NCBI RefSeq assembly: GCF_026571515.1
Contig: NW_026860568.1
Coordinates: 62,001 to 126,000 of the forward strand
DNA from: Ruditapes philippinarum
Lineage: Eukaryota
Length of the DNA stretch: 64,000 bases
Direction of reading: 5' to 3'
Of the stretch, positions 12,001 to 46,600 are shown in pieces. The stretch's first letter is position 1; every line of letters begins with the position of its first letter. The position numbers are program-made.

Positions 12001-15000
12001 GCAGAGCGTGCCCATTGATTGGCTCATTTTTGCTGGGGTTTACATATTGTGACGGCAGAGAAAGGAAAAGCGACAGAAATATCATATTCAGATGTTCGTT
12101 CATTGGTTCATTTTTGCCGGGGTTTCATATTGTGACAACAGGGAACGTGTTTTTATGTTTGACTATGATACAAAAGAGAAAAAACACCAAAACACTCGGT
12201 AATCTGATTAATACTCGGGGGCTACGCCCCCGAGTACAAATCAGATAACCTCGTGTTTCGGTGCTCTTTCTATTACATAACCTTAAAATGATTCCCACCC
12301 TGTAATCAGACTTAGTGATAAAATATGTTCGTAATGATCCATTCTTACACGCTTCACATTATCTAAGGAAAAGCACAAAGTACTGAGGACATCATAGCAA
12401 TACAGTACCGGTCAGTGAGCTGGCAAACATCCGAGGGTTGAGGCCCGTTCAATGCTTTGGGCTGACTGGGAGGTCTGCGTCGTAGAACGATAATGCACGG
12501 TTTATCGGACAAATGTTTTGTAAATATTTTAATATTGGCCTTTGTGATTATACTCCTGCACATTTAAACTCGAAACATGTTCTGTTCTACAACAACTTAC
12601 TCAAAATTAATATCTATTTCCTTAATAAAAGTTCAACTTTAAACTATATTTCGCACTTGCATATGTTAAAAGCGTAATTATCAACAAAAAAAGAATTTCA
12701 AAGTAAACTTACAATAAGTGTTTAGATCTACGCTAAACGTTGAAGCTTTCAAGTGAAAATAATGTATCAAAGCTCGCATAATATATTCAAAAGGTATGAT
12801 ACATATCATAGTAATAATTAAAATACATAAATAAAAAATAAATAAATTTCGTTAAATTTCTATCATTAATATTCTTAACCACGTTCTGCTTGCACTTGCA
12901 TTTTGAGAATCATCAATTACTCCACGGTTGCCAAAACTAATCAATATTGATCATCGATCAATCTTGACTGAAAGTAAAATTTAATAAATGAATTATTTGA
13001 AAATTATTCACTCATCAATTTAGTTCGTATACAGCACTGCGTAAATTATGTATCCGTTACAGATAAGTGTATACATTTTGATACAGTTAAGTATTCTTTA
13101 AAGAATTTATCAAAACATTCATTCACACAGGTTTAGAGACTACATTAAATATATAAAACTACTGTCACTTTTTAATATCATTCCACAACTTCGATCATTA
13201 GAAAAAATATAAGCGGACTAGTAAGGATATAAAATAAAAGTGTAAAGACTATTTAGATTTTTTAAAAAGGTAAATTTTATTCACAACCTATGTATTTCTG
13301 TATTTCATTTTGGAACGACGGAAACTTAATATTAATTTATTAACTTAATATATATTAATTTATGTATTAATTTAAAATATATCTTATTTTTGCTGGTTTT
13401 CGTGAAGTTGGTATCCATGTTAAGTCACTTCTACTTCAAACTTCACCAAGTTATAAACAGCCTATGAGATTATATTTTGTATATTTGGTTGTATTTCCTT
13501 AAATAAAATGTACGTAAGGAGAGCTTTTATCATGCACTATCTCGTTCGTCAGGTTTCCATGGACACATCTATGATATCACTAATTACAAAATTGTGCCAT
13601 TTACACTCATGTTGCAAGATGAGTGAAAGATGGTTTAAACCTGTGCCATCCATGAACAGGCTCGACAAATTCGGGTCTGCAACATTTTCATATTGTTTAG
13701 GTTTGAAGCCCTTTGATGTGTTAGTTCACATTTCACTATTTTAAGACATCTCTACACTGTTAGTCAGAGTTGTTTTGATATTTTGATTAATGAAATAATA
13801 CAAGAATGATGTTATACATTATATTAGGTCGAGTCTAAATTTGCTCTTTGGATAGCTTATTGACTCGAAAGACATTAAAACATCTAAAGACAGTGTTCAC
13901 TCTATGAAATAAAGCATGACTTAAAATGTATTGTTACATTATACAAACAATAAATTCGAAGTTTATGTGTACGAGGGATATATGTACACAACGTTTCGAA
14001 GCGTTTGTATGCAACAAAACTAGGAATTTAGTATGGTTAATTGACTGTTATTTCAATATATCTAGGTTGTTTCATATCTTTGGTATGAATGCTTAGACAT
14101 AAGATTGATACCTTTAGAATTTAAAATACAATGCTTGATTTTAAAACAAGAGCCTGAATAAAGTAAACGATTCTACGTTCAAAAGGGCCTTAATTCTATC
14201 AAAATCCATCTATAGACAGTGATCTCTATTATTCTCTCAAAGAAGTGTGTTTCAATCAATGCCCTTAAGTATTTTTCAATGCAATCGTATTCTATTCTAT
14301 TATACGTATAACCGACATGCGTGCAAAATAACTTAACCAAAGTTTGACGCCGACGCCTTATTGCGGTACAATAGCTTGCCCAAATTCTTCGGATAGTCGA
14401 GCTACTAATGTTCAATTTTCATTGAAATCAATATGTTTTATTTCGATTTTCCATCCCTATCTCGTCTTTGAGTATTAATCTGACCTTGAAAATTGCACAC
14501 AGTACGTTTATATTGCAGATGGAGTTCGATGAAGAGGGTGAGTTATACATTTGAACTATAAGTATTAATTTTGTTTTCCTTAACTCATTTTGATATTATC
14601 ACGTAAGAGTCTTAACATTCTAATAGTTATTTAATTAAAATTAGTTAAAATTACAAGGACTAATGACAGTAGAAATATATACACAGCTAATGTAACTTAA
14701 TAACCAAAATTATAACATGATATGTTGATATTAATTTCATATAGAATGGAGAAGAAAGTTTGACAACTATGATATGAATAAAGATGGGGTAATATCTGGT
14801 GAGGAAATTACACGCTTGATGCAATATGTAGGATTTAATCCAACAAAAGCAGACGAGGAAGACTTTTTGCAAAGACTTGGAAAATCAAAATGCAGTAATT
14901 ATTATTTTCATACGTTTTAGCTATATTGTCTTGTTAACAAAACACCAACGTGAAGTACATAAAAGATTCTTTAAAATAGCTAGTATGTTGAAATTGCAAT

Positions 15001-43611: not shown

Positions 43612-46600
43612 GGCGAGTAGGATAGCTCCCCTTTTCATAGAAAAGTCGAGCTAAAAACTTTCTTCCCCACCGTTTTGCACTAAATTATTTGAAATGTAAA
43701 ATATATGTCGTTTCATAGTTTGATCTTTTTAAATTCTTTAAAATTAAACAGATATTTCTACGAATATAGTTAGCATAGAAAAGATACTCGTATTTGATAA
43801 GAGATATTAAAATTATTCCTGTCACAATTAAAATACTTCCTGAATTAAGAAAACGTTTATTAAAACAATGAATCGTATATTAAAAATGTAAGAAATACCA
43901 TGGTGTCAAATTCCAAAATCCCACAAATGGAGCACAGTTTTTCGTATCGAACAGTATACAGATATGATGTTTAATATTTAGACAGGTTTCTCTGTACGTT
44001 GTTAAGGTCTTTAGGGTATACAGTTAAATAACACGCACTTAAAATGCGATAGAATCATCAGAGCGAATTTATAAACTCCTTCATTCATTACACTCAATAT
44101 CACTGAATGGCATGAATACTGAAATTTAAAGAAAGATATAAAACGAGATTTACATCATTTCATTTAGACCTATAAGTCCTACATACAAGCAAAGTTTAAA
44201 TCACGTATTTTGTATTATTCGATTTTTTTTTAAAGATGGGGACTTAGTTTTACAAGTAAACAAAATACTCTTTGGATTGTATTTGAGACAATTAGAAATC
44301 TGTACGTTTCCCTCATTGAAATATTACTTTACTTGATTACTTTATCTTAACCATGTCGTTGGTGATTGATATAACAGAAGTTTGAATATATATTAAATTG
44401 GAGAAAGAAAATTATTTATATTAATTATTCCGAAAGGCGCAAATTCAAGGTTGACACTAAAACAAAGCTTTAAGGGAGCCTATGATTTTTATTACTATTA
44501 TTATTTTCTTATAACTAAAAGGCACATGAGCACGGTCGTTGCTATAAATCCATATATTCCCCATTCATAGACATCCTTTAGCAGAAATGCCCAAAGTATG
44601 CGAACTGTTACAAATATGCATTATGTCGTTGACAATGTTAAAATTCATAAAATTGCGCATTGAAAGGTTATTATACATTGTCGAGTACAATACTGATTTC
44701 TATAAGACCTCTATAGGACGAGGTGCTAGACAATATAGGGATTTGATATGGACTTTTTGTACTCTGAAGATGGAAATGAGACTTAATGGAGTGCGATATG
44801 CATTTGATATAGATTGTTTGGCTCTGGAAATAAAAACGAGGCTATTATAATAACATTCAATATTGATTTATTTTGGAACATTACAAGATGCAAACATTGA
44901 TTGTTCATTGGTTATATTTTTATAAAATGTGAAATGAACTTGTATATTGATCGGTGTTAGAATGCGTTTGTACCGAGACAGACATGCAAATTCCATAGGA
45001 ACTACATGTAGACATGGCCGTGACCATGGAATAACATTTTCATTAACCACTTAAACATGATGGAGCAGGGATCTGCATAATTACACCAACTAAACTTTAG
45101 ACAAATTTAATTGTTTATTTTGCTGTTTACATTATTTACAAAAACTTTTAAACTCCAATAAAACATTACTTGAGGGGAAAGTCAATAAACGTAAATTAAC
45201 ATGTACCTATACCCTGAATAGTTAATTCTAAATATCTTATAGATGTAAGATGTATTAAAATAGTTGTAAATATAAATCGATGACAGGTAGAATTGATAGA
45301 TCAATACATCCACGAATTAGACTACGGAAAGTATAAAAGGTTCATAATGGACTGAAATTTTTAAATATATATTGTATACATTCACACGCTGTTAAATCCG
45401 ATATACAATTTATCTTTACAGTGATTTAGAATTGTTGGTAGCATGTGATATTTATTTTTATTTAAACATTTTAAATTTTCTACAGCAAAGTTCAGTGACG
45501 TAAAACAAACAAAAAGAAGACATTCAAACAGCAAAAAGTCATATATTTTTAGATATACCTTTCAAGATTTTGGTCTGTTGGTATTCCATTACAAATGCAC
45601 TGTGAGAGAGGATAGAAGATAAATCTAGTGAACATTGTTTCTGCTTGTTGATCTTTACTTTCATGTAATCTTTGTTTTTTTTTGTTGTAATCTTTAAAAC
45701 TATGTGCAATTGTCCATAAAATAATCACCATTTACTACATATTTGAAATATTTTATTCATACTTTTCCTACACAAATAAGTGACATTAAAGCTCTTCAAT
45801 AGAAAATCTTTCATCTAAATAATTTTTTAAAATTAAAAGGTTCACTTATTTCAAACCAAGATTACAAATCATACATGTGACATATTCACTTCACCTGAAA
45901 CACGAACAAATAAATAAATTGTATTAGGAAACGCACATTCGGAATGAAAACATTGTTTTAAAGGTATTTATATAAGTCCTCAATCAAGCGACACTTAAAT
46001 TATACTAGTCTCAAGTTATTATAAAAGGGCAGCAAAGTACAACAGCCTTAATTTCAATAAATTTTTTAACTTGGAATCTAAAGTCATTACCCTTTGCCAG
46101 GTTCTATACTGTTTGACTAACTAAATTTTCAGCTTCGTATCACCATAATAAGTTTATTGACAGTTCCATAAATGAAAGCTGGACAAATCCATTTAAGAAA
46201 ATAAGAAAGTAAGCAGTAAGAAACCTTAGCAACGTGTTTCCACTTTTAGTCGGCTTTGTTAACATCCATTACAAGTTAACTTATTTGCACAATGCTGGTG
46301 TTTCAAAAACTTTGAATTACTCATAATTCACTGCACTGCATTTACAAAATAAGTATTGGCAACAGACAATTCAAGCTTAGAGGTTAGGGCAAGTTTTCTT
46401 TTCCTAGCATGAATATATGATTGAAAATGTTTGAAAATAGCACATATTCTATTCTTTTAAAGGATAATTCAACAAAAATTTTCAACTTTGGAACATGTCC
46501 ATTTTATTATTACATAAAAGAATTTCTTTTGACAGTAATGTTCCATATTGGTACAACCAAAATGTAAAATCAGGTCTAAAAAGAATCTTAACAAGATCTT

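What the first reader, a model, noticed from the sequence alone, without database searches (positions are those of the whole stretch)
14519..44354. Two sub-families sorted by strand, each with its own intron architecture
Seen: + strand genes have a short exon 2 ending at the E/D|W codon and a phase-1 intron after the EF3 loop (ELK|E). The - strand genes lack the intron at the E/D|W position and have a phase-1 intron inside the EF3 loop at Gly6. They also have a longer EF3-EF4 linker and a dead N-lobe. Gene 3 coding exons are 3/31/144/144/102/29 nt; from recall, vertebrate calmodulin has 3/31/144/107/136/29, so four exon sizes match. Inference: derivation from a calmodulin gene by DNA-level duplication, then an inverted duplication with independent intron changes and separate expansion of each arm.
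[Added by the scan's program, not by the reader: the finding's places include an assembly gap (unread letters, written N; its length is only estimated) at 34995 to 35217. Whether the letters on both sides are continuous or in frame is not known: test that first.]
Basis: partly seen in the sequence, partly recalled or inferred. Interest (0 to 1): 0.65.

Follow-up and report, generated by a model that had tools for sequence, protein, structure and literature searches.

The report
Clam calmodulin-like gene cluster, two subfamilies
This stretch of Manila clam DNA holds seven old calmodulin/troponin-C-like calcium-sensor genes in two head-on groups, each with its own intron pattern; it is a tidy but ordinary lineage-specific gene family, already annotated in public databases.

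Summary
The window is Ruditapes philippinarum: a RefSeq protein named 'calmodulin-like isoform X1' equals my exon model of one minus-strand gene letter for letter.

There are four plus-strand EF-hand genes. One of them (3272-4592) lies outside the given span and lacks its 5' half. Three minus-strand genes face them.

Plus-strand genes keep the calmodulin introns and add a phase-1 intron three codons after the EF3 loop. Minus-strand genes lack the codon-12 intron and have a phase-1 intron in the Gly6 codon of EF3. They also have a 30-34-residue EF3-EF4 linker and an N-lobe with no detectable EF-hand signal.

Its ATG-only exon is implied but could not be located.

The assembly gap (34995-35217) lies inside the last intron of the middle minus-strand gene. 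No reading frame crosses it.

The strand split has 83-89% bootstrap support. Paralogs are 21-54% identical with no DNA-level similarity, so the duplications are old.

DNA-level descent from a calmodulin/troponin-C-type ancestor is supported. An inverted duplication, as opposed to a later inversion, cannot be tested here.

This is a new member of a known kind, of low to moderate interest.

The parts
3272..3406 (+). p0 exon, EF2 tail to EF3 (135 nt); outside the finding's span
   Evidence: AG/GT borders; Pfam EF-hand_6 E 3e-09
3576..3668 (+). p0 exon, linker plus EF4 (93 nt)
4561..4592 (+). p0 candidate terminal exon (32 nt including the stop)
   Evidence: aligns with the other terminal exons
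14519..14537 (+). p1 short exon (19 nt). It begins with ATG directly after an acceptor AG and ends in phase 1.
14745..14894 (+). p1 EF1 exon (150 nt)
15842..15979 (+). p1 EF2-tail/EF3 exon (138 nt)
16254..16346 (+). p1 linker/EF4 exon (93 nt)
17262..17284 (+). p1 candidate terminal exon (23 nt)
   Evidence: aligns with the residues after Met1 of P0001
21038..21181 (+). p2 EF1 exon, 144 nt
   Evidence: 79% identical to P0001
22781..22924 (+). p2 EF2-tail/EF3 exon, 144 nt
23744..23845 (+). p2 linker/EF4 exon, 102 nt
24289..24317 (+). p2 terminal exon, 29 nt including the stop
26889..26916 (+). p3 exon 2, 28 nt
27216..27350 (+). p3 EF1 exon, 135 nt
28023..28169 (+). p3 EF2-tail/EF3 exon, 147 nt
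28367..28456 (+). p3 linker/EF4 exon, 90 nt
28851..28879 (+). p3 terminal exon, 29 nt
31115..31179 (-). m1 terminal exon, 65 nt
   Evidence: exact match to the C-terminus of P0003
31754..31909 (-). m1 exon C (EF3 from position 7, long linker, EF4), 156 nt
32239..32355 (-). m1 exon B (EF2 tail to EF3 position 5), 117 nt
32824..32965 (-). m1 exon A (N-terminus and degenerate EF1), 142 nt, starts in phase 0
   Evidence: no Pfam family
34354..34356 (-). candidate ATG-only exon 1 of m1 (unverified)
   Evidence: ATG followed by a GT donor; P0003 has one Met before exon A
34895..34935 (-). m2 terminal exon as used by P0004, 41 nt, beyond the gap
   Evidence: aligns to the last helix of troponin C
34995..35217 (.). 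assembly gap (223 N) inside m2's last intron
36246..36389 (-). m2 exon C, 144 nt
36886..36993 (-). m2 exon B, 108 nt
38340..38487 (-). m2 exon A, 148 nt
39171..39203 (-). m2 first coding exon in the P0004 model (33 nt). An ATG-only alternative lies at 38896-38898.
40195..40259 (-). m3 terminal exon, 65 nt, homologous to that of m1
40727..40879 (-). m3 exon C, 153 nt
41864..41977 (-). m3 exon B, 114 nt
42302..42452 (-). m3 exon A, 151 nt
   Evidence: ATG followed by a GT donor

Best explanation
The region is a cluster of seven old paralogous four-EF-hand genes of the calmodulin/troponin-C group in the Manila clam, Ruditapes philippinarum. Four lie on the plus strand and three on the minus strand, with their 3' ends facing each other near 29-31 kb.

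Origin (inferred from shown intron positions). All arose by DNA-level duplication, not retroposition, of an intron-bearing ancestor. That ancestor had the metazoan calmodulin gene layout: an ATG-only exon 1 and phase-1 introns at codon 12, in the EF2 loop and at EF4 loop position 12.

The plus arm kept all of these. It gained a phase-1 intron three codons after the EF3 loop.

The minus arm changed in four ways:
- it lost the codon-12 intron;
- it gained a phase-1 intron in the Gly6 codon of the EF3 loop;
- it lengthened the EF3-EF4 linker by 6-10 residues, a stretch the model predicts as disordered;
- its N-lobe calcium loops decayed.

Function (inferred, not shown). The proteins are small cytosolic calcium sensors. 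Plus-arm proteins have two to four canonical loops and act like calmodulin or troponin C. Minus-arm proteins bind calcium only through the C-lobe (EF3, and in part EF4), while the N-lobe keeps the fold as a structural or target-binding half.

Age. The duplications predate the split of Ruditapes from Mercenaria.
For: Species and models. P0003, 'calmodulin-like isoform X1 [Ruditapes philippinarum]', equals Met plus my four m1 exons. P0004 equals three m2 exons plus a terminal exon.

Family:
- Pfam EF-hand families hit 11 of 11 plus-arm exons scanned, at E 3.5e-11 to 0.02. The two weakest are p3 exons, at 0.02 and 0.009.
- Pfam hits 4 of 6 minus-arm C-half exons weakly and 0 of 3 minus-arm N-terminal exons.
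- In the PDB sequence search, all 60 rows listed for P0003 are calmodulins or calmodulin fusions, E 7e-17 to 5e-12.
- P0004's best hits are troponin C (6e-08) and calmodulin (1.5e-07).
- P0001's best single-protein hits are troponin C (1e-22) and calmodulin (2e-19).
- The AlphaFold model of P0003 has mean pLDDT 74 and pTM 0.50. It shows eight helices in four helix-loop-helix units, with residues 103-110 (the linker insert) and 151-160 below pLDDT 50.
- The best Foldseek PDB matches are calmodulins, then troponin C. A myosin light chain first appears at rank 34.

Introns. The abalone calmodulin layout comes from PMC6171432.

Split into two arms:
- Identity is 38% within the plus arm, 33% within the minus arm and 28% between arms.
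- Bootstrap for {m1,m2,m3} against the rest is 0.88 (Poisson), 0.89 (p-distance) and 0.83 without p0. It is 0.79 with a Kimura correction that produced invalid values.

Age:
- P0001 from Mercenaria is 68% identical to p2 (84/124), against 40-46% to the other plus genes.
- No paralog pair shares DNA similarity by blastn.
Against: - No outgroup was available. The root, the monophyly of each arm by sequence and the sisterhood of the two arms all rest on intron and indel characters, polarised against abalone calmodulin only.
- The alignment has about 75-150 compared sites per pair. One block (linker/EF4) does not recover the split on its own.
- ATG-only exons are candidates only. For m2 the database model uses a different 33-nt first exon.
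- The p0 gene has no 5' half in the window, so it may be a fragment or a pseudogene.
- No expression, calcium-binding or target data were seen for any of the seven genes.
- The terminal exon of m2 is joined across an assembly gap of unknown true length.
Confidence: 0.8

Rival explanations
1. The minus-strand genes belong to a different EF-hand family (myosin light chain, troponin C proper or another). They sit beside the plus-strand genes by chance and do not share a local origin with them.
For: - Between-arm identity is only 28%.
- No outgroup was available to show the arms are sisters.
- The Atlas search by structure lists a myosin essential light chain cluster first, at TM 0.63.
Against: - All 60 listed PDB sequence hits of P0003 are calmodulins. 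Light chains rank below troponin C and calmodulin for P0004.
- The minus arm shares the EF2-loop and EF4-position-12 phase-1 introns with the plus arm and with calmodulin.
- All seven genes have a Pro at one aligned column of the interlobe linker.
- Seven EF-hand genes in 41 kb, with no other gene between them, is unlikely to be coincidence.
Confidence: 0.1
2. The two EF3-region introns are one ancestral intron that moved by 27 nt. This could happen by a splice-site shift or by loss and regain. They would then not be two independent gains.
For: - Both introns are phase 1 and lie 9 codons apart.
- The EF2-loop intron also sits at different offsets from fixed anchors: 14, 16, 16, 17, 17 and 19 codons after the conserved Asn-Pro, against 17 in calmodulin. 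These are my hand counts. They suggest that borders drift by whole codons where the loops are degenerate.
Against: - A 27-nt move would need coordinated changes at both borders inside a conserved, functional EF3 loop and helix.
- No intermediate is seen among the seven genes.
- Abalone calmodulin has no intron there (PMC6171432).
Confidence: 0.15
3. The opposite orientation comes from a later inversion of part of a one-way tandem array, not from an inverted duplication.
For: - Within the plus arm, neighbours pair up: p0 with p1 at 54% identity and bootstrap 0.99, and p2 with p3 at 41% and 0.88. This is what stepwise tandem duplication gives.
- Nothing in the sequence marks a palindromic junction.
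Against: Nothing argues against it. The two histories leave the same present-day picture at this divergence.
Confidence: 0.45
4. Several members (p0, perhaps m2) are decaying copies and not working genes.
For: - The p0 gene lacks its EF1 and start exons in the window.
- In m2, EF3 is the only fully canonical loop.
- The last intron of m2 spans a gap.
Against: - All exons found are open and have AG/GT borders.
- A fragment in an unnamed record (P0007) is 62% identical to m2 exon C (28/45), and one (P0005) is 65% identical to m3 exon C (30/46). This suggests these paralogs are kept elsewhere.
- The 5' exons of p0 may lie beyond the window start.
Confidence: 0.3

Closest known systems
Canonical calmodulin genes of molluscs (abalone CaM A-D; PMC6171432, abstract and passages read)
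   Same: - Four EF-hands in two lobes.
- Exon 1 holds the start codon only.
- GT/AG introns. The exon sizes 31, 144 and 29 nt of p2 fit the shared calmodulin intron set.
- Calmodulin is the best PDB sequence and fold match for m1.
   Different: - Identity to calmodulin is only about 25-30% (%id column).
- Each arm has an extra intron in or just after EF3, where abalone calmodulin has none.
- The minus arm lacks the codon-12 intron, has a longer EF3-EF4 linker and has degenerate N-lobe loops.
Troponin C and the 'troponin C-like' genes of bivalves. This covers the RefSeq name of P0001, and two papers seen as titles in reference lists only: Umasuthan et al. 2013, Gene 519:194, and Yuasa & Takagi 2000, Gene 245:275.
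   Same: - The plus-arm ortholog P0001 is named 'troponin C, skeletal muscle-like'. It scores best against skeletal troponin C in the PDB.
- Size is about 150 residues.
   Different: - No evidence of muscle expression or of binding to troponin I.
- From recall, scallop troponin C binds calcium only at site IV, whereas p2 has acceptable ligands in all four loops.
- Whether the published clam gene is one of these seven stayed unchecked, because that paper is not held.
Lineage-specific calmodulin-like paralogs. Examples are the pearl-oyster calmodulin-like protein and the amphioxus calmodulin-like genes, both cited in PMC6171432 and seen by me as reference-list entries only.
   Same: Divergent calmodulin-derived genes that arose by duplication inside one animal lineage.
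   Different: Here seven copies lie in one 41-kb cluster, with two intron layouts sorted by strand. I found no printed description of that.

Membership tests
Calmodulin/troponin C group of four-EF-hand proteins | Four EF-hand helix-loop-helix units in two lobes, about 150 residues | tested here: met
   - Pfam EF-hand hits.
- PDB sequence hits.
- The AlphaFold model of P0003 has eight helices in four units.
- Foldseek best matches are calmodulin and troponin C.
Canonical calmodulin | Near-invariant 149-residue sequence (abalone copies are 94-98% similar to human; PMC6171432) | tested here: not met
   Identity to calmodulin chains is 25-30% for P0003. Gene products are 141-161 residues long.
Canonical calmodulin | Four calcium-competent loops | tested here: not met
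   - Minus-arm N-terminal exons give no EF-hand hit in 3 of 3.
- Read, the EF1 loops of m1-m3 lack the position-12 acid. EF2 of p1 and p3 lacks acidic residues at positions 1 and 3.
Calmodulin gene layout | ATG-only exon 1, and phase-1 introns at codon 12, EF2 loop position 4 and EF4 loop position 12 | tested here: met
   - Met for p2: the three phase-1 introns are at the exact positions (position counts by hand), and the ATG-only exon is implied by P0001.
- The minus arm has 2 of the 3 phase-1 introns, plus an exon A that starts in phase 0 right after a single Met (P0003).
- The positions in vertebrate calmodulin are recalled, not taken from a call.
Troponin C | Part of the troponin complex on thin filaments; binds troponin I; expressed in muscle | not testable with these tools
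   Only a database name and sequence scores are available.
Myosin essential or regulatory light chains | Closest sequence relatives are light chains; binds IQ motifs of the myosin heavy chain | tested here: not met
   - Light chains are absent from the 60 best rows for P0003.
- They rank below troponin C and calmodulin for P0004.
- They first appear at rank 34 by fold.
- Binding was not testable.

The most novel reading that the evidence does not exclude
The cluster is a compact natural record of intron turnover inside one calmodulin-derived family:
- one intron loss;
- two independent phase-1 intron gains 27 nt apart, around a still-functional EF3 loop;
- whole-codon drift of the EF2-loop intron borders in exactly those copies whose EF2 loop has lost calcium ligands.

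The minus arm would then define a bivalve-specific class of 'half-dead' calmodulin-like sensors. These have a disordered insert between EF3 and EF4 and a function of their own.
Probability: 0.3. Interest if true: 0.4.

Novelty: new member of a known kind. Interest (0 to 1): 0.22.

Why it matters
Lineage-specific expansions of calmodulin-like genes are common in molluscs, where they are linked to shell formation, immunity and muscle control. This cluster adds a clean, well-bounded example.

Its modest value is for two groups:
- Students of intron evolution: it shows same-phase introns at different nearby positions in sister subfamilies, and border drift where loops are degenerate.
- Annotators: ATG-only first exons are easily missed, and one gene model here spans an assembly gap.

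It does not open a long-standing question.

Tried and rejected
- Word-index search with m3 exon C against longer proteins found nothing: 28 candidates, none scored.
I did not pad it.
- The cluster look-up for names and sources of P0002-P0009 was switched off. Their origin is unknown and I did not pursue it.
- I first took a 17-nt terminal exon for m2 at 35663-35679. I dropped it for 34895-34935 once P0004 and the troponin C alignment showed the better exon. DNA alignment of the terminal exons was not above shuffled controls.
- No EF1 exon for p0 was found by tblastn or by profile search.
- blastn between the seven gene regions found only transposon-like palindromes, with no similarity between paralogs.
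- I considered the idea that the minus arm is a myosin light chain family and rejected it.
- Literature searches on the cluster found nothing. One search returned 0 papers. Another returned 13 papers, none about these genes judging by title and abstract. Two further searches also found nothing relevant.
- The 2013 paper on a clam troponin-C-like gene is not held.

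
Full report
Gap first. The window has one N run, 34995-35217, 223 N. No exon model touches it. On its high side the nearest coding exon is the EF4 exon of the middle minus-strand gene m2 (36246-36389). On its low side, 59 nt away, lies a 41-nt exon with a good acceptor (34895-34935). 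The database protein P0004 uses this exon as the C-terminus of m2. That exon aligns with the last helix of troponin C and with the terminal exons of the other six genes. So the gap lies in m2's last intron. That intron is about 1310 nt counting the 223 N, against 574 and 467 nt in m1 and m3. No frame has to be read across the gap. Whether the scaffold join is correct, or whether the gap hides more sequence, cannot be told from the window.

What is there. The window is AT-rich eukaryotic DNA with GC about 0.31. tblastn with the EF-hand ORF pieces and a profile search of all six frames find seven EF-hand genes and no more. Four are on the plus strand: p0 at 3272-4592, p1 at 14519-17284, p2 at 20437-24317 and p3 at 26889-28879. 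Three are on the minus strand: m1 at 31115-34356, m2 at 34895-39203 and m3 at 40195-44354. The two groups converge, with 3' ends facing each other near 29-31 kb. All exon borders I chose are AG/GT. That is a condition of the choice, not evidence.

Independent support for the models:
- P0003, named 'calmodulin-like isoform X1 [Ruditapes philippinarum]' by NCBI, is Met plus my four m1 exons letter for letter.
- P0004 matches m2 exons A, B and C exactly.
- P0001, 'troponin C, skeletal muscle-like [Mercenaria mercenaria]', is collinear with all p2 exons.
- The organism is therefore the Manila clam.

The joined step was left out. I searched exon by exon and never assembled a spliced sequence. Full-length queries were database proteins as returned.

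Intron layout (position counts by hand).
A start codon must lie on an upstream exon: the 31-nt exon has no in-frame ATG, and P0001 has one Met before the aligned residues. Candidate ATG-GT sites exist but cannot be verified.
- In p1, p2 and p3 the short exon is 19, 31 and 28 nt. It ends with the first base of a Glu, Glu or Asp codon just before Trp. This is the position and phase of calmodulin's codon-12 intron.
- All four plus-strand genes have a phase-1 intron three codons after EF3 loop position 12. The split codon is Ala, Glu, Arg and Glu.
- All seven genes have a phase-1 intron in the Glu codon at EF4 loop position 12, and a phase-1 intron in the EF2 loop.
- In the three minus-strand genes the first large exon starts in phase 0 and runs through the codon-12 position. 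A phase-1 intron splits the Gly6 codon of the EF3 loop in all three.
- The two EF3-region introns are thus 9 codons apart and in the same phase.

Abalone calmodulin genes have five exons, a first exon with the start codon only, and no intron where human calmodulin has its EF3 intron (PMC6171432, abstract and passages read). I did not see their exon sizes; 3/31/144/243/29 is my inference. The four sizes that match are therefore the ancestral set. Both EF3-region introns here are additions relative to mollusc calmodulin.

A detail. The EF2-loop intron sits 17 codons after the conserved Asn-Pro in calmodulin, p2 and m2. It sits 16 codons after it in m1 and m3, 19 in p1 and 14 in p3, with compensating length changes on the other side. 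The copies with shifted borders are those whose EF2 loops have lost ligands.

Two subfamilies.
- I aligned five homologous blocks separately and summed the counts without joining.
- Identity is 38% within the plus arm, 33% within the minus arm and 28% between arms. The range over all pairs is 21-54%.
- Neighbour-joining bootstrap for the split {m1,m2,m3} against the rest is 0.88 (Poisson), 0.89 (p-distance), 0.83 without p0 and 0.86 without the linker and tail blocks. It is 0.79 with a Kimura correction that gave invalid values in some replicates.
- By single block the support is 0.74 and 0.58. The linker/EF4 block alone does not recover the split.
- p0 pairs with p1 (0.99) and p2 with p3 (0.88). 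m1 pairs with m3 (0.57-0.74), although m2 lies between them.
- The tree is unrooted, because no calmodulin, troponin C or light chain of the species could be fetched.
- Polarised against abalone calmodulin, each arm has shared derived characters. The plus arm has the post-EF3 intron. The minus arm has lost the codon-12 intron, gained the Gly6 intron and has a linker of 30-34 residues, against 21-25 in the plus arm and 24 in calmodulin.
- One aligned Pro in the interlobe linker is shared by all seven genes. It hints at, but does not prove, a common origin of both arms.

Age.
- blastn between the seven gene regions finds no similarity between paralogs, only transposon-like palindromes.
- P0001 of Mercenaria is 68% identical to p2 (84/124), but 40-46% to the other plus genes and 29-39% to the minus genes.
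- Fragments from unnamed records are closest to m3 (P0005, 30/46) and to m2 (P0007, 28/45).
- The duplications are therefore older than the Ruditapes-Mercenaria split.
- A profile of minus-arm exon C found only 8 proteins at E up to 0.001 among 1.84 billion representatives. Three of them come from this locus.

Family and likely working.
- Pfam EF-hand families hit all 11 plus-arm exons scanned, weakly for two p3 exons. They hit 4 of 6 minus-arm C-half exons weakly, and none of the 3 minus-arm N-terminal exons.
- In the PDB sequence search, all 60 listed rows for P0003 are calmodulins. P0004's best hits are troponin C and calmodulin. P0001's best are troponin C and calmodulin.
- The Atlas places P0003 nearest a mollusc EF-hand cluster, score 0.92.
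- The AlphaFold model of P0003, built from a 3-row alignment, has mean pLDDT 74 and pTM 0.50. It has four helix-loop-helix units. The linker insert (residues 103-110) and the tail (151-160) are below pLDDT 50.
- Foldseek's best PDB matches are calmodulins, with TM about 0.5 for compact complexes. Troponin C follows, and a myosin light chain appears at rank 34.
- Reading the loops: p2 has acceptable ligands in all four loops. p1 and p3 have a degenerate EF2, and p3 also a degenerate EF3. m1-m3 have a degenerate EF1 and EF2 and a canonical EF3. Their EF4 is canonical in m1, has His at position 6 in m2, and is two residues longer in m3.
- I infer small cytosolic calcium sensors. The plus arm is calmodulin- or troponin-C-like. 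The minus arm senses calcium only with the C-lobe. Nothing here shows expression, binding or targets.

- DNA-level descent from an intron-bearing calmodulin/troponin-C-type gene is supported.
- Independent intron change in each arm is supported.
- Separate expansion of each arm is supported by the split and by the pairing of neighbours in the plus arm.
- An inverted duplication is not distinguishable from a later inversion.
- Sisterhood of the arms is not shown.

Known or new.
- The genes are annotated in RefSeq.
- Lineage-specific calmodulin-like genes are well known in molluscs and amphioxus. I saw this only as reference-list entries in PMC6171432.
- A troponin-C-like gene of this clam was published in 2013. 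I saw the title only, and the paper is not held, so whether it is one of these seven is open.
- Searches for a description of this cluster or of its two intron layouts found none.
- No supplementary files were consulted.

Left unchecked:
- Other bivalve genomes.
- The names and sources of P0002 and P0004-P0009.
- RNA evidence.

Noticed in passing
window 3272-4592 (+): A fourth plus-strand EF-hand gene (p0) lies outside the finding's span. It is 54% identical to p1. No EF1 or start exon was found in the 3.2 kb up to the window start.
   Followed up: partly
window 14 to 19 codons after the conserved Asn-Pro in exons ending at 14894, 21181, 27350, 32824, 38340 and 42302: The EF2-loop phase-1 intron sits at different whole-codon offsets in different copies. 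The offset is 14, 16, 16, 17, 17 and 19, against 17 in calmodulin. The shifted copies are those with degenerate EF2 loops.
   Followed up: partly
window 39171-39203 (-) versus 38896-38898 (-): The database model of m2 (P0004) starts with a 33-nt exon that has a strong donor. m1 has a single Met before its exon A. An ATG-GT candidate also exists for m2, so m2's true start is open.
   Followed up: partly
window 32980-33141, 37835-38063, 31461-31605: These are palindromic, transposon-like repeats inside introns of m1 and m2. The first two belong to one family, at 77-91% identity.
   Followed up: no
window 19687-19807 (+): A 59-nt unit is repeated 2.1 times. It duplicates one of the ATG-GT candidates for p2's first exon.
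   Followed up: no
window 36779-36823; 43221-43557; 43562-43610: These are simple and tandem repeats in introns of m2 and m3: (TGA)15, a 174-nt unit repeated 1.9 times, and (GACGCC)8.
   Followed up: no
window 48967-49296 (-) and 56234-56455 (-): Two ORF pieces match TAF6 domains in Pfam: TAF6_C at E 6.7e-07 and TAF at E 1.3e-08. The right-hand neighbour of the cluster is therefore a TAF6-like gene on the minus strand.
   Followed up: no
window 60-1500; 50935-52218; 59289-60305: There is a roughly 750-nt direct duplication at the window start, shown by identical ORFs at 60-314 and 810-1064. There is also a 166-nt unit repeated 7.7 times and a 54-nt unit repeated 18.8 times.
   Followed up: no
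window 34692 to 34356 (-): Only about 540 nt separate m2's stop codon (34895) from the candidate start exon of m1 (34356). A poly-A signal lies at 34692. This is tight spacing if both are real.
   Followed up: no
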